Positions 38,738 through 60,045 are shown, numbered from the stretch's first letter. The stretch is 64,000 bases of DNA from Bacilli bacterium (GCA_050949315.1 JBMNFL010000001.1:160001-224000), one strand, 5' to 3'. Translations and numbers: made by a program. Notes: generated from the letters alone by a model not told the origin.

Positions 38738-38939
38738 TGTTCAAATAATGTGAGACAAAATTAATAAAAAAACAGGCATTTTATCTATAATAAAGTTACA
38801 CCAAGATACAACAATTTACCTGTGCTTGTTTTTAATTTTAAAACACCTAATGAAGTGGAACTTGAAAAGTAATTGAATTGGTTCAAACTGCTGGTGAGAC
38901 AAGATGTAAGAAATGTCTCACATCATTTGCAACCTAACA
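38738..38939 (+). mobile_element. Internally deleted (MITE-like) derivative of the IS at 40715-41834
   Basis: About 65 bp match the IS left end (TGAGACAAAATTAATAAAAAAA..GGCAT.TTATCTATAAT), joined directly to about 135 bp matching the right end (...TCTCACATCATTTGCAACCTAACA). Several substitutions; opposite orientation to the full copy. Confidence 0.92.
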
Positions 38940-39058: not shown

Positions 39059-40144
39059 ATGAGTAATCAGCTTTTCAATAATCAAAATAAACCTGAGCAA
39101 CAACAACTAATTGTGACGCATCATTATGTTCATAGAAGGGCAATGTTTTATTCTTTTTCATCCTTTTTTGTTTCGGTAATTGTGCCATTAGTTTTAAATA
39201 TCGTTATGGTTATTATCAAAGATGAAATGTTAAGAACTATTTTTTCTTTTGTTGCAATATTATTAGTTATTTTAAACGTAATAATAAGAAGCACTTTGGA
39301 TAAAGTTAAGTATTATGCAGCACAAGTTAAGCAAAAATTTGATTTAAACGTTTTTGATTTTAGTAACAAGTTTGGGTTTAATGAAGAAGTTGTTGAAAAA
39401 GAAATTAAAAGGTATCGCAACAAAAAATTAAAACGAACTAGAGATATATATCAGGACTATACTCATTTAAGTAAAAATGAGGCAACCTTTCTTTATCAAA
39501 GAGATAATATTGAACAGATTGAAACGGTAGTTAAAAAATTTAAAATTTTAATTAGTATAATTACAATTATCGTTGGTATAGTCTTTATGTTAAGTTTCAT
39601 CATTGATGATATTACAATGTCGTATGCTATTTCGATACTAGTAAACGCTATACCCTTGATAACGTATGTAGTTATGGGATTTAGTAAAATGGCCTACGAT
39701 GATGACTTGTTATCGGAAATAAAAAATTATTCTTCTAAAATCAAGTTTTTATGTAAACAAAGCGGGAAAATAAGTATCAAACTAATTGAAAATTTACAAT
39801 GGATGCTATTCCATTATAAGAAAAATCAAATATTTATTCCCATTTGGTTTGAACATGCCTTTTATAAACAACGATCAATTACTACTGAGATGCAAGAAAA
39901 CAATCAAAAGCCTATAAAACAAGTTAAAAAAGCCCCTAAAAAAAATATTAATCAACAAGCGATAAAAGAAACTGTTCCTGAAATCAAAAAAACAATTAAA
40001 GAAGAAATAAAAAAACCTAAACCACAGATCAAAAAGGTTGCCAAAAAAGAGACGTCAAAAATGACTACCCCCAATAATAAAAAAGTACCCAAAAAAAGCG
40101 GGGGAAATAAAAAAGTAAGTGCCTCAAAAACGAGAACAAAATAA
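39059..40144 (+). CDS. S_4TM-like (SMODS-associated four-TM) protein with Lys-rich C-terminal tail
   Basis: NNQN..QQ, two TM pairs, AAQVKQKFDLNVF, YQRDNI, LQWMLFHYKKNQIFIPIWF match the S_4TM pattern as recalled; not verified by HMM. Confidence 0.68.
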   Translation: MSNQLFNNQNKPEQQQLIVTHHYVHRRAMFYSFSSFFVSVIVPLVLNIVMVIIKDEMLRTIFSFVAILLVILNVIIRSTLDKVKYYAAQVKQKFDLNVFDFSNKFGFNEEVVEKEIKRYRNKKLKRTRDIYQDYTHLSKNEATFLYQRDNIEQIETVVKKFKILISIITIIVGIVFMLSFIIDDITMSYAISILVNAIPLITYVVMGFSKMAYDDDLLSEIKNYSSKIKFLCKQSGKISIKLIENLQWMLFHYKKNQIFIPIWFEHAFYKQRSITTEMQENNQKPIKQVKKAPKKNINQQAIKETVPEIKKTIKEEIKKPKPQIKKVAKKETSKMTTPNNKKVPKKSGGNKKVSASKTRTK

Positions 40145-40302: not shown

Positions 40303-40731
40303 ATGGTTAAGGGTAAATTGTTGGGCATCTCGCTGGCATTTCTCACAATTGTATTAGCGGCCCTGTTTGCGTTCCTTTTACTAAGGGGAAACTACACTTT
40401 AAATGAAAAAGTAGTTGCAAACAAAAATGATGAGATTGTGACTGTGTTAGTTGATGATTATGTTCGGAAAAACAAGGACAGTTTTTTTAGAGCATCTAAT
40501 TGTAAGGTTACTATCTTAGATGGTGATAAAGATGTGACTGAAACTTTCTTTGAAGATTTTAAAACAGAAGACAATGTTTTGAATAAAAGATATGAAAATA
40601 AGGTCTACACCTTTAAGATCAAGGGGCTGTTTCTTGATAAGGAAGTTAAATTTAAATTTTCTTATGAGGATTACCGAATAATCAATAGAGATGGAACTCC
40701 CGTAGATTATTTTATGTTAGGTTGCAAATGA
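40303..40731 (+). CDS. N-terminal fragment (signal/membrane anchor) of the giant surface protein; last codons derive from the IS
   Basis: RBS GGAGG, MVKGK plus a hydrophobic helix LLGISLAFLTIVLAALFAFLLL. Confidence 0.85.
   Translation: MVKGKLLGISLAFLTIVLAALFAFLLLRGNYTLNEKVVANKNDEIVTVLVDDYVRKNKDSFFRASNCKVTILDGDKDVTETFFEDFKTEDNVLNKRYENKVYTFKIKGLFLDKEVKFKFSYEDYRIINRDGTPVDYFMLGCK
40690..40714 (+). repeat. 25-bp target site duplication, left copy
   Basis: GATGGAACTCCCGTAGATTATTTTA, identical to 41835-41859. Confidence 0.97.
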
Positions 40732-41834
40732 TGTGAGACGTTTCTTACATCTTATCTCACCAGTAGTTTGAACCAATTCAATTAACTTTTCAAGTTCCAC
40801 TTCATTAGGTGTTTTAAATTTAAGAACAAGCTTAGGTAAATTGTTGTATCTTTTGTTCCATAATTTACCTTGATATCTAAGATCATCGAGGGAATAAAAT
40901 TTTAAATGTTTATAGAATTTATCTTGATCAATTCGATGACTTCTTTCTACCTTACCATTATGTTGGGGGGTTCTAGGCCTTATCAAGTGATGATTTATAT
41001 GGTTTGTTCTACAAAATCTTTCTAAATAGTTTTCATATTTTCTAACATTCACGCCCTTATTTTTGCGGCGAACTTTATCAGTGAATTCCACACCATTGTC
41101 TGTTTGAATTTCCTTTGGAAAACAACCTATTTTCTTATAAGCGAAGATCAAAGCCTGAACACTTTCATACATTGAATGTTCGGCCGTGAAATAAAGAACT
41201 CTTTTTCGTGAACATTCATCTAAGATAGTGTATTGATAAAATCGACCTTCCAAACTATCAATTTTGCATTCTTTGGGAACATATTTAACATCCATTTGCC
41301 ATTTTTCATGAACCATTTTGGGCGTATGGTATTGTTTGTCATGCTTTTTAGGATTTGGTTTGTAGGGAACAAATTCTTCATTTCTTTTAAAGGTTCTTAG
41401 AACACTAGATGGCGAGATATCTATACCATCATGTTTTAATCTAACCCATATTTCAACAAATGATTGATCAGGATTTCTTCTGTGGAGATCTAGTATTCTC
41501 TTAACAATATTCGCTTTTAATTTATTAGGATGATCCGATAAAGGCCTATGTGATCGATTTAATAACGATTCTTTACTTCCATCAAATCGCTTTAACCAAC
41601 GATATAACGAACTCCTTTTAACGTGATAAAAAGATAGAATTTTTCTTATTGGCCAGGACGAAACCGTCCTCCTTAAGCAGGCGTGTAATTTTGTTTCAAT
41701 ATCTACTGGTATATAATTTCTTTCTTGTGTTAAAATATCCATGGGCATCTCCTTCTATATTGGTTCAACTTCATTATAGATAAGATGCCTACTTTTTTTT
41801 ATTAATTTTGTCTCACATCATTTGATATTAAACA
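40715..41834 (-). mobile_element. Complete IS481-like insertion sequence, 1120 bp
   Basis: TGT...ACA termini; imperfect terminal IRs TGTTAGGTTGCAAATGATGTGAGAC / TGTTTAATATCAAATGATGTGAGAC; flanked by 25-bp direct repeats. Confidence 0.96.
40717..41748 (-). CDS. IS481-like DDE transposase
   Basis: HTH (SSLYRWLKRF), WQMDVKYV, IQTDNGVEF, PQHNGKVERSHR. Confidence 0.96.
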   Translation of the reverse strand: MPMDILTQERNYIPVDIETKLHACLRRTVSSWPIRKILSFYHVKRSSLYRWLKRFDGSKESLLNRSHRPLSDHPNKLKANIVKRILDLHRRNPDQSFVEIWVRLKHDGIDISPSSVLRTFKRNEEFVPYKPNPKKHDKQYHTPKMVHEKWQMDVKYVPKECKIDSLEGRFYQYTILDECSRKRVLYFTAEHSMYESVQALIFAYKKIGCFPKEIQTDNGVEFTDKVRRKNKGVNVRKYENYLERFCRTNHINHHLIRPRTPQHNGKVERSHRIDQDKFYKHLKFYSLDDLRYQGKLWNKRYNNLPKLVLKFKTPNEVELEKLIELVQTTGEIRCKKRLTSFAT

Positions 41835-41859
41835 GATGGAACTCCCGTAGATTATTTTA
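41835..41859 (+). repeat. 25-bp target site duplication, right copy
   Basis: Identical to 40690-40714. Confidence 0.97.
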
Positions 41860-41885
41860 ATGTCAATGAAGATGATATCCAAATA

Positions 41886-44800
41886 ATGTATAAAACCGAT
41901 CGCCATTTCAACGATGGCTTTTTATGCTTTGCCGATTCAGAAAATGAAGAACCAATCAGTAAATACCTAAGTGTTGATAATATAAAAGACTATCAAGATT
42001 TGTATTTTGTTAATCCCAAAAATACCACAGGAACCATTGAGATTGTCTATGTTGTTAATGGAACAGATAGAATCATCCATGTGGAAGAAAGAAAAAAGGG
42101 GCTCAATGAATTAGAATCATATACTCCAGATTTAAGCGCTTTGGGCGTCCAAGGTTATAAGCTTTCTGATAGCGCGCCTTCCTCATTAGTTTATGATTTC
42201 AATAAAAAGGTTGTCAGATATGTCGAAATGGATAATGAAAAATGGGCGACCGTTACTATTGATTATGATAATGGGGCACCACTTCAAACCATTCCGGTAT
42301 TAAAAGGCGATGTGGTGGCACATCCTGGCGTCATACCAACAAAGGAATCAGTAGATCAAAATACCACATACAGATTCTTAGGCTTCCAAAAAGAAGGAGA
42401 GGCTGGTAAGTATAATTTTGACGATGTAGTAGAATCTAGTTTCAAATTAAAAGCTACACACGAGAAACAAGAAGGTGTGGATGTATTAGATAATGATCCT
42501 AGTTATGTAAAGGTAACTATCAAATATGTAGATGTCGATGATAGTAGCAATCCTTTGTATTCAACCGATATCCGAAGAGAGAAAAATACGGTTGAAAGTT
42601 TTGACATTCACTATTTAACTGGTTATAGCCCAGTCGATAGTTTTACCAATAATCAAGTTGAAGTTACCTTTGATAGTGATAAAGTCATCGAAATTAAATT
42701 AAAGAAAGAAAATAATATTATCGTTGCTTTTGATTTTGATAATGGACAAAAAACATATGCGAATTTCAGTGTTGGCGATAAAGTGATTTTACCTACACAA
42801 ACACCAGAAAAACCAAAAATAGGTAATAAGACCTTTACTTTTAAATACTGGTCCTTAGACGGCGAGAATAAATTTGATGAAGAAACCATGCTTACTAGGA
42901 ATATAGAGTTAATAGCCGTATATGAAGTTACGACAAGTACTGAAGAAAACGGCAGTATCAAAATTGTCTTTAAAGATGTTGATACGAATGAAGATATCCA
43001 AAACCCGATGTTAAAAGAAGGGCTTTTAAATAGTTTTGAATCAATAATAATTCCCGAAGTTGATGGCTATGTATTTGATGGGACAGAAGAGTTGATTGCT
43101 GTCCAATATACTACACCAACTAGGGTTTATGTTCTTTCATATAAAAAACTTGCAGTCATTGAAGAGAATGAAAGTAGAATTATCTTTAAGTTTGTTGATG
43201 TAGATAGAATTCGTTTACTACACGTTGAGGAAATTGTGGGTGAGATTGGCACGAGTAGAGAATATACTAATACCTTTACTAAAGAGGGTTATGAATTAGT
43301 AGACCCAAGTCAAACAAGCATCAATGTCACTTTTGAAAGCGAGTCAAAGATAATCAAAATAAATTACAAAATAAAAGAGGCTGGGTCATATACTATCATA
43401 TTCAACTCTAATGGTGGGAGAGGAAATATTCCCAATATTGTGGCTGATGAAGATCAAGAAGTAACTCTTACTAAAAACGTTTTTACTAAGGATGGCTATA
43501 AATTTATCGGTTGGAGTTTGACAGCTGATGGTGAGGTTGTCCATGCCGATGAAGCTAAAGTCACTAATCTTACCACAGGAACTAACGTTACTCTATATGC
43601 CAAGTGGGAAGCTAATAAATATACAATTAAATTTAATAATAATAGTGGAACAGGAAGTATGGAGTCTATCGAGGCTACATATGATAAAAATATAACATTA
43701 ACTAAGAATAGTTTCACTAAGAGTGGCTTTAATTTTGGAGGCTGGAGTAGGGATGGCTCTAGCGAAGCCGAATTCTATGATGAAGATGAAGTTAAAAATT
43801 TAACTACCCAGACTGAGGTAACCTTATATGCTGTGTGGATCAATATCGGTCTAGTTAACTATACTGAAGAAATATATCTTGAAAAAATTGATTCGCCAGT
43901 AGACAAGGTAGACTATACCGTAGCCGATTTCTTACTAGATAGTGACAAAACTAAGGTGTATCAGGGTTTAGCAGATGCTATTGCTACGGCTAAGACCACT
44001 TCTTTAGAAGGCTTTGCCATTAAAGATGAACTATCTATTAAGACAGGAACCATTAAAGCTGATGGTAGTTTAGTATTGAAACTATACTTTGTAAGGAATA
44101 GAGGCAATGTCAATTATCAATTTGATTCAGGTAGTCATCAAGTAAGGCTTAAATACGGCGATACCATAACTAAACATTTCAGTGATTTAGATCCCCAAAT
44201 TCAAAAGCCTAATTTCAAGGTAGCTGGTTGGACATGTAATGGTGCGGATTATAGCTTTGGTGAGACAATGGGTCTTGATGATATTACACTTAAGGCCAAA
44301 TATCAAAGAAATAAATGGCAGGTAAGATTTAACTGCAAAGTTGAAGAAGTGGATGGAAGTTTTGTTGATAGAGCAGTTAGTGATAATAATTTCTATGCTA
44401 GTAGTGCTTCTGTAAGCTACACCTATAATGTAGCTGGTTTTGAAGTTGAAACATTCTATTACACAGTTCCTATGGCTTATAGTTCTGAAGATGAGATAAT
44501 AGATGTTACAGTTGGAGCCGATAAGAATATTAATAGGAAGAGTGTAAATGTAAAATATGAATTAGAAGGGGTTGGGGCTTTAACTTCAGGCTCCCTGCCT
44601 GCTACTACAAGATATAAGTATGAAGAAGAAGTCACCCTTCCAACAGGACTGGCGGCTACTGGTTATAATTTTGCGGGTTTCTTTAAAGGCGCCCAACAAG
44701 TATCTGGTTCATTTAGTATAAGTGTTGCTGACTGTAATGAGCCCACAGGTACAGTGGTTATTAAGGTTAGATTCTCGGAATTTGAAAGTGTTCCTTACGA

Positions 44801-47800
44801 TATTGTTTACTATAAAGAGTTAGGCAATGTGGATGCCAAAATAGATGAAAGCACTTATTCTAAAGACACACATTTCACTCAGAGTGATTCAACCACTCTA
44901 ACGGCCACTATAGATAGTCAGGTTACATTAGATATCTCAACACCAGAGTTTATGAATAAATACGCGGGTTTCACACCCAAGAATCTATCAATATCTGTTC
45001 ATAGTGGTACGGCTGGAAAGGGTGCAGATAGGTTAACCTTAGAGGTATTTTATGTTAGAGATAGACATAAGGTGTTATTTGATTTAGATGGCGGTAGTTC
45101 TGGTATTGAGGAATTAGAATATACCTATAAGTATGAAGATGTCATTAGCAATCATTTTGCCACCGACTTACCTACTAAAGAAAACTATGCATTTAAGCAC
45201 TTTACGGATATTAGCGGTAGTGGTGCCTTTGCCTTTGGTACGGCCCAAATGGCTAATGAAGACATCAACTTAAAAGCCATCTATGAAAGAAACAAGTGGA
45301 AAATAACCTATAGTTACCAAGAAGAGTTAGTTAATGGAACGTATTCGCAAACAAAATACGTTACAAGCACTGAGTTTTATTCAAAGAGTGATACCTTTAA
45401 CGAAACTTTAACAAAAGCTGGCTTTACATCAGTCAATATCTCAATCCAAATACCAGCGGATTATAGTGATTTTACTAATGATACCTATAGTCATGACACC
45501 ATATATAAGCTTAATAGAAAGACAGTAGAGCTTAAGTTTGTTGATGGCGAGCCTCTAGTTCCCTTTACAACCGGTTCGCTACCACAAGATACAGTATACA
45601 AATTTGGTCAAACTTATAATCTACCAGTACTTGCTAAAGAAGGCTATACCTTTGATGGTTATAAATCAAGTGTTACCAGCACTTATTACACAGCTGGCAA
45701 CTATGTGGTAGGACTTACTGATGTCGAATCAGCTAGTATTACCTTTACAGCAGAGTTTACAGCCTTACCCTTAGATAGAGGCATAACTCTACAATATCAA
45801 TATCAGAAAGGTCCAGGAGATTGGGTTACAATAGATACTGAGACCCTTGCTGGCTATGATAATGAAACTAGAACAGTCACCTTAAAAGAGTTTGATGAGT
45901 TTGATTTAGTTGGCGCAGCTACTTTAGAGGTAGTATTCGATCAAGCGAGTAAAACGCAGAGAGTAGAAGTTAAAAAGGATGCAACTAAATGGACTAAAAT
46001 CACCTTTAAGGCTGGTCCTAATTCAAGTGTGGAGACCACTGAGTTTGAGGTAGTAATCGATCGTCCATTTAACGGACTTCATCAACCGACGATTAATCCA
46101 CCAAAGATTAATCCAGATGAAGGCTATAAGAATATGGATGATCCGGCTGATAATTGGAGTCCAAAATTTGAAGCGGATGGACAGGTTTCTGGCCCCCAAA
46201 CATTTACCGCCCAAGTTCAAGTAGATAGCGATTCGACCTATAAATATACCGTTAACTACTTAGAACAAGGTGAAGATGGGAACACCGTGCGTACTGCTAA
46301 GACTGGATACCATGAGGTAGGAACCTTAGACTTAGGTTCACATCCAACTATTGCCGGTTATAACTGTGTGACAGGTACTACTACATTGACAATCACAACC
46401 AATCCTGCCTCCAACGTTTTAAATGTTTATTATGAAAAGAATCCTGCTCAATGGACAAAGTTAACCGTAGTGGTTGGCAATAAAGGAACCAACCCCAGCA
46501 CCACAGAATATGATGTAATTAAGAATCATCCATTAGGTGGCGATAATCAACCAAAGATTACCTTCCCAACAAGTGTAACTGCTGTTGCTGGTTATAAAGT
46601 TCATAATACACAACCATGGAGTCCAGCCTATGATCCGAATGAAGAATTAACAGGTCCCAAAGTAATTAATGCGAATATAGTTGAAGATCCCGATCAATGG
46701 ACAACATTAACCTTTGTTATTGGCGATAAAGCAACTGCTTCAGGCACTTTGAAATATGATGTTATTAAGGGCATTTCATTAAGTGGTGCAAACCAACCAA
46801 AGATCACTTTGCCGACTATTACTTCTGTTGCTGCTGGTTATAAAGTTCATGATACAAAACCGTGGGATCCAGCCTATAATTCAACTGAAGTTTTAACAGG
46901 CCCTAAGACAATTAATGCTAATATAGTTGTTGATCCTGATCAGTGGGTTGATATTGAGTTTGTGGCAGGACCCAATTCAACGGTAACTAAAACTCAATTT
47001 AAAGTAATTAAGAATCTTTCCTTTGAGGGAGCAAATCAACCAAGTGTTAATCCACCAGAAATTAGTCCAGCTACTGGTTATAAGAAGATGGATAGTTTAG
47101 CTGATTATTGGAGTCCAAAATTTGAAGCGGATGGACAAGTTTCTGGACCACAAACATTTACTGCTCGAGTTCAAGTAGATAAAGATCAAAAATTCTCATA
47201 TACCGTTAACTACTTAGAACAAGGTAATGATAGTAATGTACTACATGTTCCTATGACAACTGGAACCCATCATGTAGGAACCTTAGACTTAGGTTCACAT
47301 CCAACCATTGCCGGTTATAATTGTGTAACAGGTACTACGATGACAATTACAGCAGATTCATCCTTAAACGTCTTAAATGTTTATTATGAAAAGAATCCCG
47401 CCCAGTGGACAAAGTTGACTGTAGTGGTTGGCAATAAAGGAACCAATCCTAGCACCACAGAATATGATGTAATTAAGAATCATCCATTAGGTGGAGATAA
47501 TCAACCAAAGATCACTTTCCCAAGTGTCACTGCTGTTGCTGGTTACAAAGTTCACGATACACAACCGTGGAGCCCGGCCTATGATTCGACTGAACAATTA
47601 ACAGGGCCCAAGACAATTAATGCTAATATAGTTGAAGATCCCGATCAATGGACAAAGTTAACTGTAGTGGTTGGCAATAAAGGAACCAATCCTAGCACAA
47701 CAGAATACAATGTAATTAAGAATCATCGGCTAGATGGGGCTAATCAACCAAAGATTACCTTCCCAACAAATGTAACTGCTGTTGCTGGTTATAAAGTTCA

Positions 47801-50657
47801 CGATACACAACCATGGAGCCCAGCCTATGATCCGGCTGAACAATTAACAGGGCCCAAAACAATTAGTGCTAATATAGTTATTGATCCGGATCAATGGGTT
47901 ACTATTGAGTTTAAGGCAGGACCCAATTCAAGTGTGGATACCACTCAATTTACGGTGATTAAGAATCATTCCTTTAAGGGTGCAAATCAACCAAGTGTTA
48001 ACCCACCAAAGATTAATCCAGATGAAGGCTATAAGAATATGGATGATCCGGCTGATGATTGGAGTCCAAAATTTGAAGCGGATGGACAGGTTTCTGGTCC
48101 CCAAACATTTACCGCCCAAGTTGAAGTAGATAGCGGTTCAACCTATAAATATACCGTTAACTACTTAGAACAAGGTGAAGATGGGAACACCGTGCGTACT
48201 GCTAAGACTGGATACCATGAGGTAGGAACCTTAGACTTAGGTTCACATCCAACTATTGCCGGTTATAATTGTGTAACAGGTACTACGATGACAATTACAG
48301 CAGATTCATCCTTAAACGTCTTAAATGTTTATTATGAAAAGAATCCCGCCCAGTGGACAAAGTTGACTGTAGTGGTTGGCAATAAAGGAACCAATCCTAG
48401 CACCACAGAATATGATGTAATTAAGAATCATCCATTAGGTGGAGATAATCAACCAAAGATCACTTTCCCAAGTGTCACTGCTGTTGCTGGTTACAAAGTT
48501 CACGATACACAACCGTGGAGCCCGGCCTATGATTCGACTGAACAATTAACAGGGCCCAAGACAATTAATGCTAATATAGTTGAAGATCCCGATCAATGGA
48601 CAAAGTTAACTGTAGTGGTTGGCAATAAAGGAACCAATCCTAGCACAACAGAATACAATGTAATTAAGAATCATCGGCTAGATGGGGCTAATCAACCAAA
48701 GATTACCTTCCCAACAAATGTAACTGCTGTTGCTGGTTATAAAGTTCACGATACACAACCATGGAGCCCAGCCTATAATGCAACTGAAGTTTTAACAGGA
48801 CCTAAAGAGATTCATGCTAATATAGTTGTTAATCCAGGTCAATGGGTTACTATTAAATTTGTGGCTGGAGAAAATTCAACGGTAACTACCACTGAATTTT
48901 CGGTGATTAAGAATCTTTCCTTTGAGGGAGCAAATCAACCAAGTGTTAATCCACCAACGATTAATCCAGCGGCTGGTTATAAGATAACAAATAATCCGGC
49001 CCAAGATTGGGATCCTGGATTTACAGCTGATATGCAGGTTTCTGAACCTCAAACATTTACTGCTAAAGTGGTTTTAGATCCGGATCAATGGCGTAATGTA
49101 ATTGTTAAACATATTGGTCAAGATTTAAGTGGTAATTATACGGTGACATTAAAGACGGAACCTACAGTTAACGTAGTAATTGGTAGTGAAGTAAATCTTA
49201 CTTCTGATAGCTTTACAGGCTTTACTTATGATACATCAAATCCTGCTACCTATACAGTAACTGATGGCGCCTCTCCTCAAACAGTAAATATTAATTATTC
49301 TAGAAATAAACACACTATTACCTTTGATCCTACTGATGGCTCTCCAACTCCAAATGCCATGACTGATGTGTATTATGATCAAGGTGTTTTAAACAGTTTA
49401 GTTGTAAGTCCAGCTCCCACAAGGACTGGTTATACATTAGATGGTTGGACTATTAATGATACAGGAACAAAATTAACAGCGGCTTATAAGATGCCAGATG
49501 AAAATATTACTTTAAAAGCCATTTGGAAAGCTAAAACTTATAAAGTAATATTCCATAGTAATTATGGTGATGGTACTGATAATACTACAGAACAAACGAT
49601 AACTTATGATGTACCTACACGTCTAGATCAAAATTCATTTAATAAAACAGGCTATGGATTTACAGGGTGGGCCACTACGGCTACTGGTGATAAGGAATAT
49701 GATGACAATCATCGCGTAACAAACTTGTCAACAGGCGAGGATTATGACCTGTATGCAGTATGGGAGTTTCTAGGTTACGATGTAACACTCAATCTTAATG
49801 GTGGCAGTATTGCTGGCGAAGCTGGGGATCCAGTAATAAAACAAGTTAAAGAATTCCCATATACGTTGCCTAATGCAACTAAGTACATAAGTGATAATAC
49901 ATACTATGAATTCTTAGGCTGGTATAACACAAACGATACTACTGGAACTAGGTATACAATTTTGACAGATCCTCAAAAATATACTCTGTATGCCATATGG
50001 GGTAATGTGGTTTATCACGTTGGAGAATATCCACAAACCAAAGTTACTGATGCTACTTTAATAACTGCATTAAATGGTTGTGAAGTAACAACTTCACAGC
50101 AAACAGTAGCTACATCAAAACCAGGTTATTCTCACTTAGAAGAATGGTATACCGTTGAATACGGTGGTAATAAATATGAAAAAGTAGGGGATGACTACTT
50201 TAAATACGAACCTATAGTATGTTATAAACTATCAAACGGATTGTATTATTCTAAATATGTTATAGATTCACAAGTCTTTGACTATGACTACGGCAACACA
50301 AAAGATTATAATAACAGTTATGTTAAGAGATATCTTGAAAATGTGTTTAAAGTAAAAGCAGGACTATCTTCAGCAAGACTATTTTCAAAACCGGAATTAT
50401 TGAATTCATCAGACTTTCCAGATCCTGATGCAAGAAAAGCAACCCAAACGGATTATGCAAATGCAGCATGGTACGGCTATAGAAGTAAAATAACAGAGTG
50501 GAGCACTGTTTATCATAGTGTATACAACTATTGGACAAGTACTGGGAGCTCATATTATTCCAATGGTGTGTGTTCTATCTATTCTGACGGTGGTATTGAT
50601 GATGGTTATTATGGCACCGGCCATTCATTAGGCTTACGGGTAATAGTAAGTGCTTAA
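41886..50657 (+). CDS. Giant repetitive surface protein, main fragment: InlB B-repeat (Flg_new)/MucBP-like stalk with C-terminal CLec-like domain
   Basis: Repeated F..NGG.G...F.K.GY.F.GW....LYA.W domains, MucBP-like units, tandem ~80-aa repeats. C-terminus YWTST...G...GLRVIVSA; no LPXTG motif. Confidence 0.9.
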   Translation: MYKTDRHFNDGFLCFADSENEEPISKYLSVDNIKDYQDLYFVNPKNTTGTIEIVYVVNGTDRIIHVEERKKGLNELESYTPDLSALGVQGYKLSDSAPSSLVYDFNKKVVRYVEMDNEKWATVTIDYDNGAPLQTIPVLKGDVVAHPGVIPTKESVDQNTTYRFLGFQKEGEAGKYNFDDVVESSFKLKATHEKQEGVDVLDNDPSYVKVTIKYVDVDDSSNPLYSTDIRREKNTVESFDIHYLTGYSPVDSFTNNQVEVTFDSDKVIEIKLKKENNIIVAFDFDNGQKTYANFSVGDKVILPTQTPEKPKIGNKTFTFKYWSLDGENKFDEETMLTRNIELIAVYEVTTSTEENGSIKIVFKDVDTNEDIQNPMLKEGLLNSFESIIIPEVDGYVFDGTEELIAVQYTTPTRVYVLSYKKLAVIEENESRIIFKFVDVDRIRLLHVEEIVGEIGTSREYTNTFTKEGYELVDPSQTSINVTFESESKIIKINYKIKEAGSYTIIFNSNGGRGNIPNIVADEDQEVTLTKNVFTKDGYKFIGWSLTADGEVVHADEAKVTNLTTGTNVTLYAKWEANKYTIKFNNNSGTGSMESIEATYDKNITLTKNSFTKSGFNFGGWSRDGSSEAEFYDEDEVKNLTTQTEVTLYAVWINIGLVNYTEEIYLEKIDSPVDKVDYTVADFLLDSDKTKVYQGLADAIATAKTTSLEGFAIKDELSIKTGTIKADGSLVLKLYFVRNRGNVNYQFDSGSHQVRLKYGDTITKHFSDLDPQIQKPNFKVAGWTCNGADYSFGETMGLDDITLKAKYQRNKWQVRFNCKVEEVDGSFVDRAVSDNNFYASSASVSYTYNVAGFEVETFYYTVPMAYSSEDEIIDVTVGADKNINRKSVNVKYELEGVGALTSGSLPATTRYKYEEEVTLPTGLAATGYNFAGFFKGAQQVSGSFSISVADCNEPTGTVVIKVRFSEFESVPYDIVYYKELGNVDAKIDESTYSKDTHFTQSDSTTLTATIDSQVTLDISTPEFMNKYAGFTPKNLSISVHSGTAGKGADRLTLEVFYVRDRHKVLFDLDGGSSGIEELEYTYKYEDVISNHFATDLPTKENYAFKHFTDISGSGAFAFGTAQMANEDINLKAIYERNKWKITYSYQEELVNGTYSQTKYVTSTEFYSKSDTFNETLTKAGFTSVNISIQIPADYSDFTNDTYSHDTIYKLNRKTVELKFVDGEPLVPFTTGSLPQDTVYKFGQTYNLPVLAKEGYTFDGYKSSVTSTYYTAGNYVVGLTDVESASITFTAEFTALPLDRGITLQYQYQKGPGDWVTIDTETLAGYDNETRTVTLKEFDEFDLVGAATLEVVFDQASKTQRVEVKKDATKWTKITFKAGPNSSVETTEFEVVIDRPFNGLHQPTINPPKINPDEGYKNMDDPADNWSPKFEADGQVSGPQTFTAQVQVDSDSTYKYTVNYLEQGEDGNTVRTAKTGYHEVGTLDLGSHPTIAGYNCVTGTTTLTITTNPASNVLNVYYEKNPAQWTKLTVVVGNKGTNPSTTEYDVIKNHPLGGDNQPKITFPTSVTAVAGYKVHNTQPWSPAYDPNEELTGPKVINANIVEDPDQWTTLTFVIGDKATASGTLKYDVIKGISLSGANQPKITLPTITSVAAGYKVHDTKPWDPAYNSTEVLTGPKTINANIVVDPDQWVDIEFVAGPNSTVTKTQFKVIKNLSFEGANQPSVNPPEISPATGYKKMDSLADYWSPKFEADGQVSGPQTFTARVQVDKDQKFSYTVNYLEQGNDSNVLHVPMTTGTHHVGTLDLGSHPTIAGYNCVTGTTMTITADSSLNVLNVYYEKNPAQWTKLTVVVGNKGTNPSTTEYDVIKNHPLGGDNQPKITFPSVTAVAGYKVHDTQPWSPAYDSTEQLTGPKTINANIVEDPDQWTKLTVVVGNKGTNPSTTEYNVIKNHRLDGANQPKITFPTNVTAVAGYKVHDTQPWSPAYDPAEQLTGPKTISANIVIDPDQWVTIEFKAGPNSSVDTTQFTVIKNHSFKGANQPSVNPPKINPDEGYKNMDDPADDWSPKFEADGQVSGPQTFTAQVEVDSGSTYKYTVNYLEQGEDGNTVRTAKTGYHEVGTLDLGSHPTIAGYNCVTGTTMTITADSSLNVLNVYYEKNPAQWTKLTVVVGNKGTNPSTTEYDVIKNHPLGGDNQPKITFPSVTAVAGYKVHDTQPWSPAYDSTEQLTGPKTINANIVEDPDQWTKLTVVVGNKGTNPSTTEYNVIKNHRLDGANQPKITFPTNVTAVAGYKVHDTQPWSPAYNATEVLTGPKEIHANIVVNPGQWVTIKFVAGENSTVTTTEFSVIKNLSFEGANQPSVNPPTINPAAGYKITNNPAQDWDPGFTADMQVSEPQTFTAKVVLDPDQWRNVIVKHIGQDLSGNYTVTLKTEPTVNVVIGSEVNLTSDSFTGFTYDTSNPATYTVTDGASPQTVNINYSRNKHTITFDPTDGSPTPNAMTDVYYDQGVLNSLVVSPAPTRTGYTLDGWTINDTGTKLTAAYKMPDENITLKAIWKAKTYKVIFHSNYGDGTDNTTEQTITYDVPTRLDQNSFNKTGYGFTGWATTATGDKEYDDNHRVTNLSTGEDYDLYAVWEFLGYDVTLNLNGGSIAGEAGDPVIKQVKEFPYTLPNATKYISDNTYYEFLGWYNTNDTTGTRYTILTDPQKYTLYAIWGNVVYHVGEYPQTKVTDATLITALNGCEVTTSQQTVATSKPGYSHLEEWYTVEYGGNKYEKVGDDYFKYEPIVCYKLSNGLYYSKYVIDSQVFDYDYGNTKDYNNSYVKRYLENVFKVKAGLSSARLFSKPELLNSSDFPDPDARKATQTDYANAAWYGYRSKITEWSTVYHSVYNYWTSTGSSYYSNGVCSIYSDGGIDDGYYGTGHSLGLRVIVSA
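45985..49090 (+). repeat. Coding tandem super-repeat: about 3 x 950 bp (A-B-C-C) plus one extra A domain
   Basis: 46098-46381 is nearly identical to 48003-48286; 47274-47828 is nearly identical to 48222-48776. Confidence 0.92.
50529..50657 (+). other. Candidate DGR variable region (VR)
   Basis: CLec-type terminal motif; 24 of 26 codons in 50547-50624 end in T/C and none encodes K/E/Q/W/M. Confidence 0.62.
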
Positions 50658-50685
50658 AACCATGTCAATAAAATCGGAAATTAAA

Positions 50686-50731
50686 CCCATCAATACAAAT
50701 CACAACGTCTTTTGGCGTTGTGATTGATGGG
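50686..50731 (+). other. Stem-loop downstream of the giant gene (DGR target hairpin and/or terminator)
   Basis: AATCACAACGTC-TTTT-GGCGTTGTGATT, extendable by CCCATCA/TGATGGG; no T-run follows on the + strand. Confidence 0.6.
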
Positions 50732-50934
50732 GGAATAAAAACAAAGAATGATTGCTGCTCTCAAAATAAGAGAGTATAAATTCAGTTTAATCTCTGACAT
50801 AGGGAAATTGATTATCTATGTGTTTTTGTGTTAAAAACTTTATAATAAAAACATTGCCTAAACCTTTGATTTATTGATGTTTAAATTCTTTTTTGGTTGC
50901 ATTAAGGGGTACTATCAATTATAATTAAGACCGT

Positions 50935-51133
50935 AAAACGTTGATGGGACTTAAGTATTGCCAGAACAGGGATAGATAGTGAGTGAGAATATCTAAAAGG
51001 CCAAGAAATTCACCCCGGAGTGCTACTAATACTAGCCGTTAACCGCGTTAAGGTAATTAAGAGCATAGACGCTGTCTATGAAGTAGGATGGTACCGCGAG
51101 CAATCGTTCCTAGTTTATTAGGAACTTTTTTCT
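50935..51133 (+). promoter_or_regulatory. T-box riboswitch (Phe)
   Basis: Probable specifier TTC at 51009-51011, T-box AGGATGGTACCGCG at 51085-51098, terminator GTTCCTAG...TAGGAAC plus T-run. Confidence 0.93.
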
Positions 51134-54591: not shown

Positions 54592-54620
54592 AAAAGCCAG
54601 GAATTAATCCTGGTTTTTTT
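54590..54620. terminator. Bidirectional terminator between pheT and jetC
   Basis: AAAAAGCCAGGA-ATTAA-TCCTGGTTTTT. Confidence 0.85.
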
Positions 54621-57600
54621 AAGCTTGCATATCTTGAAATTCTTTGACGGTTGAGATGGTGTTGTTACGCACCACACAGAGAGTTTTATCGACCAAAGGC
54701 ACGATGTCAGGGATTTTATCGGGTGGGGCAGAAACAATGGCCTGAAGTCCAAAATTCCTCAATAATTTGATACTTTCTTGAATGCGCTCAGAGTCCATTT
54801 TAGAGAAGGCCTCATCAAAGATGATTAAACGAATGGAAGCATTGCGTTCATTTTTTAAATAGAGACGATAGGCCTGAGAAAAGGAGGCCAGAATCGAGAT
54901 ATAGAAGGGGGTTTGAGTTTCACCACCGGACTTGGTCAGTAAGGTTCTAGAAAGTCTTTGTGACTTACCATGGTTATTGGTGACGATCAAGTCAAATTTG
55001 AGATAGGAACGATAGTCGGTGAATTTTTCAATATTCCGTTCAAGCTCAACGCGAATATCGCTACCCAAAGAGGTATCCACGAAGGTGATCTGTCTAAAGA
55101 GGTCTTCAATAACATCTTCGTATTTTTCGGTAAAATCCTTGGCTTCAATATCTTGACCTGTTAGCAATAAGGGGTCATTAATCATCTCATAGTAAGCAAG
55201 ATATTCCCTACGCGGTGAAGCGACAAAACGATAGGAATCTTCTCCGAATTTAGCATGTTCAAGGGCATCATTTAAAGCTTCAATTTGCGAGATGACCGTA
55301 TCGAAGTTGGATTTGAGTTTAGCTAAGAAGTCATTGCGGAATTCTCTTAGGGCATTTTCTTTAGCCTCAATAATCTTGCCCCGATACTCTTTTAATTTGA
55401 TTTCGGCTAAATCGTGATATTCTTCCTCATAGGCTTTGTTATCATCACAACTGGGGTCGTAATTCAACTCATAGATGGTGTTATAACGGGTTCTAAGTTC
55501 ATCGATGTAGCGTTTTTGACCATCTAAGGTCTTAAGGATACTAGCGATTTCGGTAGTCAAAGTTTCGTACAGCGATTCAGGATTGCTATTGATCTGCAGG
55601 ATATCTAAGAAAGCAGGTTCTCCAACTGTTTGAATCCAGGTCTTATCAAAACTTTGATTGATTCTTTCTTTGAGTTCGTTCACCTGAGCTTTTTGGCTAG
55701 GTAGTTCTTCTTTGAGATAACGTTCAATTTGGGCATGACCACGGACAATCTCATTATTTAATTCGAGTTGTTCGCTTTCTAAATCAGCAATCTCTTTTGT
55801 GACCTTTTGAATGTTCTTTTCTAAGGTGTCTAGATAATTTGTTGACATCGATTCAACGATTTCTCTAGTGCCATCGGCTTCTTTAATTAGGCTTGGTAAA
55901 TCCTTGGTATCGTTAAGGACTTTAACCATAGTGCGGATTTCGTTGCTATTAAGGATTTCTAAACTAGTGAGTTTACCGAGGTATTTAACCTGATTATTTA
56001 CCTCTTGTAAACGAGCCTCTAGTTCTTTAATTTCTAAGTTCTTTTGGCGCAGTTGCTCCTTAGTTGAACCACTACCAATGCAGGGGATGACGCGGTTAAC
56101 ATTAAGGCGTCTTGCGACATAGTTTTGGTAGATCATACCATCCTTAGTGATGGAACGGGGATTAGAACGGAGTTTACCTATATCGTGACATTTAATTAGC
56201 GTACCTAGATGCATATTGATATAGGTCTTTGCTCCTTGATTACGGCAGGTTAATTCTTCGCTTAGGGAATTAGCTAAAGGTGCTTTGGCATTAGCGATGA
56301 CTTTTTCGGTATCGACAATACCATAGTCATAGTAAGGCAAGTCATCTTTAACTCTGTCATAGATTCTAATGGCATCATCAACATATTTAGGATCGACGAT
56401 TAAGTAGTAACGTTGATTGCCTAGATAGGCTTCAATCGCTAAGCGCCAACTTTCATCTTTAATATCTAAAAGGTCGGCGAGAATATCGACCGCAATCTTT
56501 GTTTTGTATTTGTTAAATAAAGCCTGTTCAATGATTTCTTTAAAACGCACAAGGCGTTCATCATATTGCTTCTTACCTGAAGATAAACTAACAATATCGG
56601 CCCGATTAGCACTTAATCTCTCGCTGATTTCTACGTTTTCATTGAGAATTTTGAATTGATAGGATTTTAACTGCCCTTGGAAGTCCATGAGCTCTTTGTA
56701 GACTTTTTGAATAATCGCTTCGCCTACGGTTTCGCCCGCCACTTCAAGCTTAAGACTGCGTAAAGTGCTTTGAACAGAGCGGGCTTGTTTAGCTAAGTCG
56801 CTATCAGCAAAGTCTTTACCAAGGTCATTTATCAGAGTATCAATGCCATAATTCCAGTTATCGGCATAGGAGATTAGGTTATTTTTAACCGAGGTAATTT
56901 GGACATTGAGTTCGCGAATTTTTAACTCCAAAGCCTCAAGTTTTTCTTCAAAGGCGGCTCGGCGCTTATAAACATCAGAGGCGAATTTTTCTTCAATTAA
57001 TTTTTCACGGGAGTTTCTAGCGTTTTTAAGTCCAACATTACACTTATCAAGAATTGCTTGAGTCTCTTCAATCTCGGTTTTAACATCGGCGATTTTAAGT
57101 TTGATCTTATCTTCTTGGGCTGCGGTGCGGTAGAGGTTACTGCGCTCAAGGATGTAGCGTTTAATCTCCACGCTTTTTTGTCTTTCTTTCCAAGTGTTGT
57201 ATTTCTCAATAATATCTTCAAGACTATTAACCCTTTTGACGAGTTCTTCGGTCTCGATTTCTAGTTTTTTATAATTGCGGAAGTTTTCCTGCATAGTGAC
57301 CACATTGATGTTATTTTCAACATCGCAGATATATTCGGTGATGAAGGTTTCAATGTTGGTGATAGGGGTAAAAGGAATGGACTTTTTAAACAAGTGAAAG
57401 AAGGTTGAGGGTAGATTACCTAAACGCATTCTTAAAAATTCTCGGTAAGAGGTGTTGGTAGGGAAGAAGGTGACATCACTATAATTATTTAAGAGGAAAA
57501 GGTTTAAGACCTTCATGTCCATGGGAATCTTACCTTCAATGAATCTATTCTCAGGTAAGGCGCCATTATAGTAGAAAAACTTACCATCATAGGAGTCATC

Positions 57601-57957
57601 TTCATAGGAGTCAAAGACAATGCCTAAAGTAAAGGTGTTATCTAAGGTGTCATCATAGAATTCACCGACGACATAAGAAGTGAAGCGGCCATTTCTTAAA
57701 TATAAGGCCCCACCATCTTCGGTATCGCCAAATTCGCAGCGTAGATAGCCCCTTAAGCTACGAGTAGACTTTTCGGAGGCGGACTTATTAAAGAAGTGAC
57801 CAGTTGTATCACCGAGCAAGAGGAGTTGCAAAGCATCAATAACGGTGGTCTTACCGGAAGCGTTTTTCCCAGTTAAGAAGTTCACCAAACCAAAATTTAA
57901 AACCTCATGGGTGAAATAATGCCAATTGGTTAAGAGTAATTTATTTAATTTCTTCAC
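54619..57957 (-). CDS. jetC: SMC-family ATPase, JetC/MksB type
   Basis: LLLTNWHYF, Walker A GKNASGKTT, long coiled coils, signature KSGGETQTPFY, Walker B IIFDEAFSKMD. True start is probably GTG 57957 after AGGAGG. Confidence 0.88.
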   Translation of the reverse strand: MKKLNKLLLTNWHYFTHEVLNFGLVNFLTGKNASGKTTVIDALQLLLLGDTTGHFFNKSASEKSTRSLRGYLRCEFGDTEDGGALYLRNGRFTSYVVGEFYDDTLDNTFTLGIVFDSYEDDSYDGKFFYYNGALPENRFIEGKIPMDMKVLNLFLLNNYSDVTFFPTNTSYREFLRMRLGNLPSTFFHLFKKSIPFTPITNIETFITEYICDVENNINVVTMQENFRNYKKLEIETEELVKRVNSLEDIIEKYNTWKERQKSVEIKRYILERSNLYRTAAQEDKIKLKIADVKTEIEETQAILDKCNVGLKNARNSREKLIEEKFASDVYKRRAAFEEKLEALELKIRELNVQITSVKNNLISYADNWNYGIDTLINDLGKDFADSDLAKQARSVQSTLRSLKLEVAGETVGEAIIQKVYKELMDFQGQLKSYQFKILNENVEISERLSANRADIVSLSSGKKQYDERLVRFKEIIEQALFNKYKTKIAVDILADLLDIKDESWRLAIEAYLGNQRYYLIVDPKYVDDAIRIYDRVKDDLPYYDYGIVDTEKVIANAKAPLANSLSEELTCRNQGAKTYINMHLGTLIKCHDIGKLRSNPRSITKDGMIYQNYVARRLNVNRVIPCIGSGSTKEQLRQKNLEIKELEARLQEVNNQVKYLGKLTSLEILNSNEIRTMVKVLNDTKDLPSLIKEADGTREIVESMSTNYLDTLEKNIQKVTKEIADLESEQLELNNEIVRGHAQIERYLKEELPSQKAQVNELKERINQSFDKTWIQTVGEPAFLDILQINSNPESLYETLTTEIASILKTLDGQKRYIDELRTRYNTIYELNYDPSCDDNKAYEEEYHDLAEIKLKEYRGKIIEAKENALREFRNDFLAKLKSNFDTVISQIEALNDALEHAKFGEDSYRFVASPRREYLAYYEMINDPLLLTGQDIEAKDFTEKYEDVIEDLFRQITFVDTSLGSDIRVELERNIEKFTDYRSYLKFDLIVTNNHGKSQRLSRTLLTKSGGETQTPFYISILASFSQAYRLYLKNERNASIRLIIFDEAFSKMDSERIQESIKLLRNFGLQAIVSAPPDKIPDIVPLVDKTLCVVRNNTISTVKEFQDMQA

Positions 57958-58597
57958 TGTCTTCGTCCTCCTTTTCAAAGGCATAAGGATTATTTTCCGG
58001 CGCCACTTCTTTGAACATAACTTCATAAAGGGCGTTAATCTTATCGTTAGAGACCACTTTGATGATGGTTGGGTAGATTGTTATCAAACAGGTGGGATCC
58101 TCAATCTGGCCTTCTAAACGGGCGATGATGTTATGGCGGATTAAGGTTCTTAAGGTATCGGTAGTATCTTTAATCGTAGGTTTTTTAAGCAACAAGCGAT
58201 CCTCAAGCATGCGGTAAATGACATCGCTGACGCGAATAAATACGACGTTACGCGAGGCATTCTTTTCTTTTTCTTCGTCATAGATGATTCTTAAAGTCAA
58301 AAGGAGAGTAGTAGTGAATTTATCTACTTTTAAGATGTTGTATTCATAACGATTATTCAAAGAGATAATCCCAAAGGCATCATCCTTGACTAGGTTATAG
58401 CCAGCATAATCTAAATACTCACTGAAGAGTGGGAAATTGCGTTCTAAAAAGCGGTAATCAGCATTGATTTTACCAATACGATCACGATTTTCATAGATTT
58501 CCCGTAGCACATAACTCTTATTTAAAAGGTAATTGGCCACTTTTTTAAAGCGTTCTTGTTCAGCACCGGCTAAAAGTTCAAAATCTTGCATCCACAT
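57941..58597 (-). CDS. jetB: JetB/MksE KITE-like subunit (DUF4194-like)
   Basis: 218 aa; LLTLRIIYDE and ITIYPTI motifs; middle gene, overlapping jetC. Confidence 0.8.
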   Translation of the reverse strand: MWMQDFELLAGAEQERFKKVANYLLNKSYVLREIYENRDRIGKINADYRFLERNFPLFSEYLDYAGYNLVKDDAFGIISLNNRYEYNILKVDKFTTTLLLTLRIIYDEEKEKNASRNVVFIRVSDVIYRMLEDRLLLKKPTIKDTTDTLRTLIRHNIIARLEGQIEDPTCLITIYPTIIKVVSNDKINALYEVMFKEVAPENNPYAFEKEDEDSEEIK

Positions 58598-58600
58598 AGC

Positions 58601-60016: not shown

Positions 60017-60045
60017 AATAAGTGTCCTCCTCTCAACAACTACCA

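What the first reader, a model, noticed from the sequence alone, without database searches (positions are those of the whole stretch)
50000..50731. Giant surface protein ends in a candidate DGR variable region: remote target of a diversity-generating retroelement
Seen: the C-terminus YWTSTGSSYYSNGVCSIYSDGGIDDGYYGTGHSLGLRVIVSA* has the W-T/L-x-S/T...G...G-x-R layout of C-type-lectin-fold DGR targets. In 50547-50624, 24 of 26 codons are NNT/NNC, all Gly, Ile and Thr codons end in a pyrimidine, and K/E/Q/W/M are absent, whereas the preceding codons frequently end in A. A stem-loop lies ~40 bp after the stop. Established: DGRs mutate template adenines, so AAY codons become NNY; many targets carry a downstream hairpin, and some DGRs act on unlinked genes. 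No RT, avd or template repeat is visible in this window. Inference: a ~3000-aa membrane-anchored adhesin with a hypervariable tip diversified in trans. Together with the repeat-variable stalk and the IS switch, this would be a three-layer surface-variation system in a poorly studied Bacilli lineage.
Basis: partly seen in the sequence, partly recalled or inferred. Interest (0 to 1): 0.86.

Follow-up and report, generated by a model that had tools for sequence, protein, structure and literature searches.

The report
Variable lectin-like tip, no DGR evidence
The end of this giant bacterial surface protein is a lectin-like binding domain with a naturally hypervariable tip, of a type that some phage retroelements do mutate, but nothing found here shows that such a retroelement acts on this gene.

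Summary
In 50547-50624, 24 of 26 codons end in a pyrimidine, which is the single highest of 2898 sliding windows in the gene, and K/E/Q/M/W are absent.

The codon signal is mostly a composition effect. Given the amino-acid sequence and the gene's own codon usage, 21.2 of 26 NNY codons are expected (P=0.09, rank 123 of 2898).

The last ~220 aa are a divergent DUF6273-type domain (hhalign 96.6%, E 6e-10). Published work calls this family C-type-lectin-like and a DGR target in gut phages, with the variable region at the same C-terminal position. The tip is the least conserved part of the domain: 17% mean pairwise identity against 49% elsewhere.

No DGR part was found:
- No reverse transcriptase or template repeat lies in the 64-kb window.
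- No reverse transcriptase lies in five related Acholeplasmatales loci, and no template repeat in the four scanned.
- Two 95%-identical paralogues differ evenly along the domain, not at the tip.
- All nine homologous tips share the pyrimidine-ending bias, four of them internal copies.

The rest of the genome could not be searched. The gene is also split by an IS element.

The parts
40303..40713 (+). N-terminal fragment of the giant gene, 137 codons, carrying the signal/transmembrane anchor
   Evidence: 55% identity to residues 1-138 of the full-length homologue P0031. It is in frame with the main ORF once the IS and one copy of the 26-bp duplication are removed (read).
40715..41833 (-). IS element that splits the gene. 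Its transposase ORF is 40717-41748. It is flanked by a 26-bp direct duplication at 40689-40714 and 41834-41859.
   Evidence: Pfam rve, rve_3 and HTH domains. The ends and the duplication were read and confirmed by self-BLAST.
41886..50657 (+). Main ORF of the giant surface protein, 2923 aa: a repeat stalk plus a tip domain
   Evidence: Pfam finds Flg_new (6 stretches) and Flg_new_2. Internal repeats of about 950 nt.
49989..50654 (+). C-terminal 222-aa segment analysed. Domain residues ~8-96 form a beta-rich subdomain and ~85-221 form the DUF6273-like (C-type-lectin-like) domain.
   Evidence: No Pfam hit even at E<=10. hhalign against 7 bona fide DUF6273 segments gives probability 96.6%, E 6.2e-10, over query residues 85-221. 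AF2 model with pLDDT 91.0 and pTM 0.90.
50529..50543 (+). Conserved frame motif YWTST on the N-terminal side of the tip
   Evidence: Y181, W182 and T185 are invariant in 9 aligned sequences.
50544..50630 (+). Hypervariable tip (domain residues 186-214). It contains the NNY run at 50547-50624.
   Evidence: Mean pairwise identity is 0.173 here against 0.486 in the rest of the domain, over 16 domain copies. The minimum of all 29-residue windows starts at residue 186. The model places strands at 193-197 and 203-209.
50631..50639 (+). Conserved frame motif G-L-R on the C-terminal side of the tip
   Evidence: G215 and R217 are invariant.
50686..50731 (+). Stem-loop after the stop codon, most likely the gene's terminator-type hairpin. 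No U tract follows on the + strand; an A-rich tract lies upstream.
   Evidence: -26.4 kcal/mol, z -3.8. It is unique in the window. Comparable hairpins follow the stop codons of 3 of the 5 homologous genes, in L001, L004 and L005, two of them (L001, L005) followed by a U run.

Best explanation
Window 49989-50654 encodes the distal ligand-binding domain of a giant, N-terminally membrane-anchored surface protein. The organism is a low-GC Bacilli lineage whose nearest relatives in this analysis are Acholeplasmatales MAGs.

The domain is a divergent member of the DUF6273 superfamily, which publications describe as C-type-lectin-like. A conserved scaffold (YW-T...G-x-R) holds a surface beta-hairpin with loops of 26-36 residues. 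This segment is the hypervariable part of the family.

In this copy the tip is rich in Tyr, Ser, Gly, Asp and Asn, much like an antibody paratope. That composition produces the run of pyrimidine-ending codons and the absence of K/E/Q/M/W.

The most likely source of the family's tip diversity is ordinary substitution and small insertions or deletions under diversifying selection on a binding surface, not retroelement mutagenesis. The hairpin after the stop codon most likely acts as a transcription stop or insulator ahead of the pheST T-box leader.

In this genome an IS element separates the signal anchor from the main ORF, so the protein is probably not displayed unless the IS is lost.

Shown: domain homology, the variability profile, the composition origin of the codon bias, the absence of DGR parts in 64 kb and in the related loci examined, and the IS split. 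Inferred: the ligand-binding role, the mode of diversification and the function of the hairpin.
For: Domain identity
- hhalign of the family alignment against 7 DUF6273 segments gives probability 96.6%, E 6.2e-10.
- 9 of the 20 hit proteins scanned reach Pfam's DUF6273 gathering score, among them the close relative P0005 over its C-terminal end. L004 does the same.
- The Atlas neighbours of P0005 are DUF6273/Flg_new clusters, with scores of 0.93-0.95.
- Passages read describe DUF6273 as C-lec-like.

Composition origin of the codon bias
- Expected 21.2 of 26 NNY codons against 24 observed, P=0.09, rank 123 of 2898.
- In 9 of 9 homologous tips the NNY fraction (0.57-0.85) is above that of the rest of the same domain (0.43-0.58). 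The first, internal copy in L001 has 23 of 27, and all nine contain 1-5 K/E/Q/M/W residues.

Ordinary divergence
- Tip length varies from 26 to 36 residues.
- The paralogues L002 and L003 are 94.7% identical over 4.4 kb. Within the domain they differ at 32 of 672 positions, spread evenly and split 9/9/14 over codon positions. The last 132 nt carry 8 mismatches, against 24 in the first 540 nt.

No DGR parts
- No reverse transcriptase among the 44 window ORFs scanned, nor in three unassigned ORFs re-scanned at E<=0.1.
- No template-like copy in the window.
- No reverse transcriptase among 37 ORFs of the 5 related loci, and no template-like copy in the 4 loci scanned.

Hairpins: stem-loops follow the stop codon in 3 of the 5 homologous genes (L001, L004, L005); two of them (L001, L005) have a U run.

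IS split.
Against: - The whole genome was never searched, and DGRs can act on distant genes. Wu et al. report 45 of 372 DGRs with non-adjacent targets and 10 with targets more than 100 kb away (passages of PMC5758913).
- The domain family is a documented DGR target with the variable region at this same position.
- This tip is the extreme of its family, with 0 of 29 K/E/Q/M/W. The 40-residue run free of them is the longest in the protein.
- A 10-mer with 9 of 10 G+C sits at 50613, just after the run, where an IMH would begin. There are only 3 such sites in the 8.8-kb gene and 60 in the window.
- The hairpin has a 4-nt loop and no U tract, so it is not a textbook terminator.
- Foldseek gave no significant PDB match for the good model. 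The best E is 0.38, and no lectin or DGR variable protein appears in the rows shown. The C-lec assignment therefore rests on sequence homology to DUF6273 and on the literature, not on a fold comparison made here.
Confidence: 0.8

Rival explanations
1. Active DGR target in trans. A DGR cassette (reverse transcriptase, template repeat, possibly Avd) lies elsewhere in the chromosome or on a prophage or plasmid. It rewrites about 50547-50624 by adenine-specific mutagenic retrohoming, with the GC-rich stretch at 50613 serving as the start of an IMH and the downstream inverted repeat aiding target recognition.
For: - The domain family and the position of the putative variable region match known DGR targets.
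- 24 of 26 codons are NNY and K/E/Q/M/W are absent.
- The tip is the most variable segment of the family.
- A GC-rich 10-mer lies at 50613.
- A strong inverted repeat lies 28-41 nt after the stop codon.
- Remote targets exist (PMC5758913 passages).
Against: - No reverse transcriptase or template repeat lies within 41.9 kb upstream or 13.3 kb downstream.
- The codon bias is not beyond composition.
- The same bias is seen in 9 of 9 homologous tips that carry Lys/Gln/Glu, four of them internal copies.
- No reverse transcriptase was found in any of the 5 related loci, and no template repeat in the 4 scanned.
- The paralogue pair shows no change localised to the tip.
- The conserved frame codons flanking the run contain adenines at positions 1-2 (ACA AGT ACT). 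A template repeat could not cover them without damaging the scaffold.
- The inverted repeat is not GC-rich (5 of 11 stem pairs). Such repeats were found in only 127 of 372 DGRs anyway.
Confidence: 0.07
2. Fossil of a former DGR target. The tip domain, or the family's ancestor, was once diversified by a DGR, for example in a phage receptor-binding protein, and was then captured by cellular surface proteins. The NNY-rich, K/E/Q/M/W-poor composition is a decaying imprint with no active template today.
For: - The family-wide NNY excess and K/E/Q/M/W deficit in tips.
- DUF6273 is shared between phage DGR targets and bacterial proteins.
- One Atlas neighbour cluster is commonest in Uroviricota.
- The bioRxiv passage notes phages that keep both target genes after losing the DGR.
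Against: - The composition is equally expected for any Tyr/Ser/Gly/Asn-rich binding surface.
- tblastn found no phage relative among 50,697 phage records.
- The PHROGs matches are weak (best E 6.9e-4, for L004).
- The idea predicts nothing that could be tested with the data at hand.
Confidence: 0.1
3. Cassette-type variation. The tip is exchanged by recombination or gene conversion with silent or paralogous copies of the domain elsewhere in the genome.
For: - Relatives carry several copies of the domain: five in L001 and two in P0003.
- One MAG carries two paralogous genes.
Against: - No second copy of the domain or of its tip lies in the 64-kb window.
- The paralogues L002 and L003 differ evenly along the gene, with no mosaic block at the tip.
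Confidence: 0.03

Closest known systems
DUF6273 (Pfam PF19789) domains of Bacillota surface proteins and phage proteins
   Same: Profile-profile match over the last ~137 residues (probability 96.6%). The architecture is also shared with Flg_new repeats. The frame is the same: an aromatic-W...G-x-R ending (alignment).
   Different: The window's domain does not reach Pfam's model at all, with no hit at E<=10. It carries an extra beta-rich N-terminal part of about 85 residues. It forms a small separate clade: 28 representatives at E<=1e-3, of which only 7 reach E<=1e-10. That clade was found only in Acholeplasmatales-type MAGs in genome contigs.
DGR variable proteins with a DUF6273 / C-type-lectin-like variable domain (tentaclins and Mtd-like targets of gut phages; PMC10743442, PMC11792537, bioRxiv 10.1101/2024.10.15.618418; passages read)
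   Same: The domain superfamily is the same. The variable segment lies at the C-terminal end of the domain and is described as a beta-hairpin flanked by loops; the model here likewise places strands 193-197 and 203-209 in the tip.
   Different: Those proteins sit in phage genomes beside a reverse transcriptase, Avd and a template repeat, or within about 17 kb of the template repeat. Here no reverse transcriptase or template repeat lies within 64 kb. The context is chromosomal housekeeping genes, and the protein is about 3000 aa.
Bordetella phage BPP-1 Mtd and Treponema TvpA (classical C-type-lectin-fold DGR targets; named from recall and from passages of PMC5758913)
   Same: A C-terminal variable segment on a conserved scaffold, followed by an inverted repeat downstream of the gene.
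   Different: No sequence match to any solved structure (best E 0.24, to an unrelated protein). No Foldseek match either. No TR/VR pair is present. The inverted repeat here is AT-rich and lies 28-41 nt beyond the stop codon.
Thomasclavelia ramosa IgA peptidase N-terminal DUF6273 domain (PDB 9qa6; PMC12402451, passages read)
   Same: The only entry in the Foldseek rows shown that the papers read here describe as containing a DUF6273 domain. It appears at rank 10 with 242 aligned columns. It is an example of the domain in a non-DGR cellular surface protein.
   Different: The match is not significant (E 0.63, probability 0.21, TM 0.31, rmsd 11.8).

Membership tests
DGR target gene (variable region of a diversity-generating retroelement) | A template repeat elsewhere that matches the variable region except at template adenines | tested here: not met
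   Window only. Ungapped exact and A-tolerant scans of 78-, 141- and 181-nt queries on both strands gave no hit other than self and A-rich tracts. blastn-short gave as its best non-self hit 70% over 44 nt inside a CNNM gene. In 40-nt subwindows, no candidate had 3 or fewer non-A mismatches; the best was 36 of 40 at 36639, against shuffle maxima of 34-35. The rest of the genome is not testable with these tools.
DGR target gene (variable region of a diversity-generating retroelement) | A DGR-type reverse transcriptase, usually with Avd, in the same genome | tested here: not met
   No RVT family among the 44 window ORFs scanned. Three ORFs without a family were re-scanned at E<=0.1, again with no reverse transcriptase. 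The rest of the genome is not testable. The window's genome is not in genome contigs: its own locus was not returned although it matches both search patterns.
DGR target gene (variable region of a diversity-generating retroelement) | Variable codons of NNY type beyond what composition gives (the imprint of AAY template codons) | tested here: not met
   24 of 26 observed against 21.2 expected from the amino-acid sequence and gene codon usage. P=0.09, rank 123 of 2898 windows.
DGR target gene (variable region of a diversity-generating retroelement) | Differences between near-identical copies or strains confined to the variable region | tested here: inconclusive
   For the window itself there are no data. 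In relatives the feature is not met: L002 and L003 differ evenly.
DGR target gene (variable region of a diversity-generating retroelement) | C-type-lectin or Ig fold carrying the variable region, usually at the C-terminus | tested here: inconclusive
DGR target gene (variable region of a diversity-generating retroelement) | An IMH with a GC-rich start at the 3' end of the variable region, and often a GC-rich inverted repeat downstream | tested here: inconclusive
   A 9-of-10 G+C decamer lies at 50613, one of 60 in the window and 3 in the gene. An inverted repeat is present, but only 5 of its 11 stem pairs are G-C. An IMH cannot be defined without a template repeat.
DUF6273 (PF19789) | A match to the Pfam model at its gathering score (23.5 bits) | tested here: not met
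   No hit for the window's 222-aa or 122-aa C-terminus even at E<=10. The relatives P0005 (24.2 bits) and L004 (24.6 bits) pass.
DUF6273 (PF19789) | Profile-level homology to bona fide members | tested here: met
   hhalign probability 96.6%, E 6.2e-10, 132 aligned columns, query residues 85-221.

The most novel reading that the evidence does not exclude
The tip of this ~3000-aa surface protein is rewritten in trans by a DGR located more than 13-42 kb away in the genome of a Mollicutes-related Bacilli lineage. This would be a remote DGR target larger than the largest reported by Wu et al. (2697 aa; PMC5758913 passage), sitting on a protein whose display is additionally gated by an IS insertion.
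Probability: 0.07. Interest if true: 0.6.

Novelty: new member of a known kind. Interest (0 to 1): 0.25.

Why it matters
If the DGR reading were true, it would extend targeted hypermutation to giant adhesins of wall-less or Mollicutes-related bacteria acting at a distance. As it stands, the useful results are more modest:
- A small, previously unnamed clade of DUF6273-like tip domains caps giant Flg_new-repeat proteins in Acholeplasmatales-type genomes.
- A run of NNY codons free of K/E/Q/M/W in a lectin-like tip does not by itself identify a DGR target, because composition alone produces it.

Tried and rejected
- Pfam on the C-terminus at E<=10 gave nothing.
- The first AF2 model, from a 9-sequence alignment, had pLDDT below 50 across the tip. 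Its Foldseek searches against the PDB and BFVD gave nothing.
- The second model has pLDDT 91, but Foldseek against the PDB still gave no match at E<=0.001.
- A profile search of PDB sequences gave a best E of 0.24, to an unrelated protein.
- PHROGs gave only weak matches to phrog_9958, of unknown function.
- tblastn against 50,697 phage records gave no match.
- The search for related loci with the 9-sequence alignment A2 failed for lack of a conserved stretch. It was repeated with the 6-sequence alignment A3.
The Atlas did not hold the window's sequence.
- The third homologue search, for short fragments that might carry the tip of the frameshifted second assembly, found none.
- The best A-tolerant 40-nt match lies at 36639, between rplT and the dUTPase gene. 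It scores 36 of 40 with 4 non-A mismatches, in a stretch that is half adenine, against shuffle maxima of 34-35. It does not extend, no reverse transcriptase is nearby, and I judged it chance.
- An A-tolerant degenerate pattern scan of genome contigs for a template repeat was considered but not run.
- A literature search for DGRs in Acholeplasma returned one paper, which was seen only in the search listing and not read. PMC8144416 contains neither Tenericutes nor Mollicutes in its main text.

Full report
**What is there.** The finding lies at the 3' end of ORF 41886-50657 (+), which is 2923 aa. Pfam recognises only Listeria-Bacteroides repeats in it: Flg_new with six stretches, and Flg_new_2. 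It finds nothing in the last 222 aa, even at E<=10. The window has 37.8% G+C and carries chromosomal housekeeping genes, among them rpsD, ezrA, dnaE, polA, pfk, pyk, thrS, infC, rplT and pheST.

**The observation.**
- In 50547-50624, 24 of 26 codons are NNY.
- All Gly, Ile and Thr codons there end in a pyrimidine.
- K/E/Q/M/W are absent.
- This is the single best of 2898 windows of 26 codons in a gene whose mean NNY fraction is 0.572.

I then separated codon choice from amino-acid choice. Eleven of the 26 residues (Tyr, Asn, Asp, Cys, His) can only be NNY. Gly, Ser and Ile are 67-72% NNY throughout this gene. With the actual residues and the gene's own synonymous usage, the expectation is 21.2 of 26. 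The observed 24 has z=1.57 and P=0.09, and ranks 123rd of 2898 windows. The signal is therefore a composition signal, not a codon signal. The run of 40 residues without K/E/Q/M/W is the longest in the protein, but runs of 39, 31, 29 and 28 residues occur in the stalk.

**What the domain is.** An exhaustive HMMER search of 1.84 billion representatives with the last 222 aa gave 28 proteins at E<=1e-3. Seven reached E<=1e-10 and six reached E<=1e-30.
- The close ones are Flg_new-repeat proteins that carry the same domain at the C-terminus (P0004-P0007; P0031 came).
- Others carry it several times: five copies in the 4188-aa P0002, four of them internal, and two in P0003.
- The distant ones are bona fide DUF6273 proteins. 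Nine of the 20 hits scanned reach Pfam's gathering score for PF19789. Among them is P0005, over exactly its C-terminal end (profile positions 108-168). A tenth hit is below threshold.
- A profile-profile comparison of the family with seven DUF6273 segments gives probability 96.6% and E 6.2e-10 over query residues 85-221.
- Atlas neighbours of P0005 are DUF6273/Flg_new clusters.

Passages of three papers bear on this. PMC10743442 and bioRxiv 10.1101/2024.10.15.618418 say that DUF6273 resembles a C-type lectin domain. These two and PMC11792537 say that gut-phage DGRs target it. The latter two place the variable region at its C-terminal end.

I could not confirm the fold independently. With a 19-row alignment, AF2 gave pLDDT 91.0 and pTM 0.90, with strands at 181-186, 193-197, 203-209, 212-216 and 218-220. 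Foldseek against the PDB returned nothing at E<=0.001. The best E was 0.38. The DUF6273-containing IgA peptidase 9qa6 appeared at rank 10, not significantly (passages of PMC12402451).

**The tip is the family's variable region.** Across 16 domain copies the segment between YW-T and G-x-R (window 50544-50630) has a mean pairwise identity of 0.173, against 0.486 for the rest of the domain. The minimum over all 29-residue windows falls exactly there. Tip length ranges from 26 to 36 residues.

**Tests for a DGR.**
1. Window. No reverse transcriptase was found among the 44 ORFs scanned, nor in three unassigned ORFs re-scanned at E<=0.1. Exact, A-tolerant, gapped and 40-nt subwindow scans found no template-like copy. 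The best 40-nt candidate scores 36 of 40 at 36639 and is at the level of shuffled controls, which reach 34-35.
2. Relatives. The window's own genome is not in the collection. Of the 38 ORFs of at least 180 aa in these loci, I scanned 37, leaving out the 4196-aa giant ORF of L001. None is a reverse transcriptase, and the neighbours are housekeeping genes. In the four loci scanned (L002-L005; L001 was not scanned), no A-tolerant copy of the tip DNA exists within the flanks held.
3. Paralogues. L002 and L003 come from the same MAG and are 94.7% identical over 4.4 kb. Within the domain they differ at 32 of 672 positions, split 9/9/14 over codon positions and spread along the domain. The last 132 nt carry 8 mismatches, against 24 in the first 540 nt. 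Their tips contain Trp and Glu.
4. Family trend. In all nine homologous tips the NNY fraction (0.57-0.85) exceeds that of the rest of the same domain (0.43-0.58). The first, internal copy in L001 reaches 23 of 27. All nine tips contain 1-5 K/E/Q/M/W residues. Lys, Gln and Glu codons in a template would yield stop codons under adenine mutagenesis (established knowledge, recalled). The NNY trend thus belongs to the domain, whether or not a DGR exists.
5. Hairpin. The stem-loop at 50686-50731 is strong and unique in the window. Comparable stem-loops follow the stop codons in L001, L004 and L005, two of them with U runs. Wu et al. found GC-rich inverted repeats in only 127 of 372 DGRs. The hairpin therefore does not discriminate between the readings.

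**What still speaks for a DGR.**
- The domain family is a known target and the position matches.
- This tip is the extreme of its family.
- A 9-of-10 G+C decamer lies at 50613, where an IMH would start. There are 3 such sites in the gene.
- The hairpin lacks a U tract.
- Remote targets are documented: 45 of 372 DGRs have non-adjacent targets and 10 have targets more than 100 kb away.
- Indels and internal variable regions also occur in a minority of DGRs, so the length variation and the internal copies are not absolute arguments against one.

**State of the gene.** The homologue P0031 has an N-terminal signal anchor and about 170 residues that the window's ORF lacks. These residues are encoded at 40303-40713, with 55% identity to P0031 residues 1-138. 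An IS element separates them from the main ORF. It has an rve transposase on the minus strand and is flanked by a 26-bp direct duplication. Without the IS and one copy of the duplication, the two parts form one frame of 3069 codons. A second assembly of the same gene, P0030, is identical over 2794 residues, starts at the same Met, and then runs out of frame near 50268. It therefore gives no information on tip variation.

**Verdict.** The tip is a real, family-wide hypervariable surface on a DUF6273-type, lectin-like domain. Its striking codon pattern follows from a Tyr/Ser/Gly/Asp/Asn-rich composition. No DGR component was found wherever I could look. I put the ordinary-divergence reading at about 0.8, an active remote DGR at about 0.07, and a fossil DGR imprint at about 0.1. 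The whole genome, read pile-ups and the closed metagenome and viral collections remain unchecked.

Noticed in passing
window 40303-41886: The giant gene is split by an IS element with an rve transposase on the minus strand and a 26-bp direct duplication at its flanks. The signal-anchor piece and the 2923-aa ORF would form one 3069-codon frame without it. The second assembly (P0030) starts at the same Met, so it probably carries the same insertion.
   Followed up: yes
window 38741-38939: A miniature derivative of about 200 bp made of the two ends of that IS (94% and 87% identity). It lies between the SpoU methylase gene and the S_4TM gene.
   Followed up: partly
window 50932-51114: A T-box leader ahead of pheS/pheT. 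It scores 78.1 bits, below Rfam's gathering score of 93, so the default scan misses it. Its terminator-like hairpin lies at 51106-51125.
   Followed up: partly
window 54619-60046 (minus strand): JetA, DUF4194 (JetB-like) and an SMC/SbcC-like JetC form a Wadjet or Mks-type operon. No JetD ORF follows jetC, because pheT converges on it directly.
   Followed up: no
window 39059-40144: An orphan SMODS-associated 4TM effector domain protein (PF18159, E 1.7e-23). No cyclase was seen next to it.
   Followed up: no
window 14891-16384: Formamidopyrimidine-DNA glycosylase and dephospho-CoA kinase domains lie in one 497-aa ORF. This is either a fusion or a lost stop codon.
   Followed up: no
window 45988-49140: The stalk of the giant gene contains three to four tandem units of about 950 nt, at 62-98% identity to each family's reference copy.
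   Followed up: no
L001 2032-17563 compared with window 2034-38592: In the Acholeplasmataceae MAG, the five-domain giant gene sits between rpsD and thiI, with the SpoU methylase gene after thiI. All three have counterparts in the window at 36-62% identity, though not next to its giant gene.
   Followed up: partly
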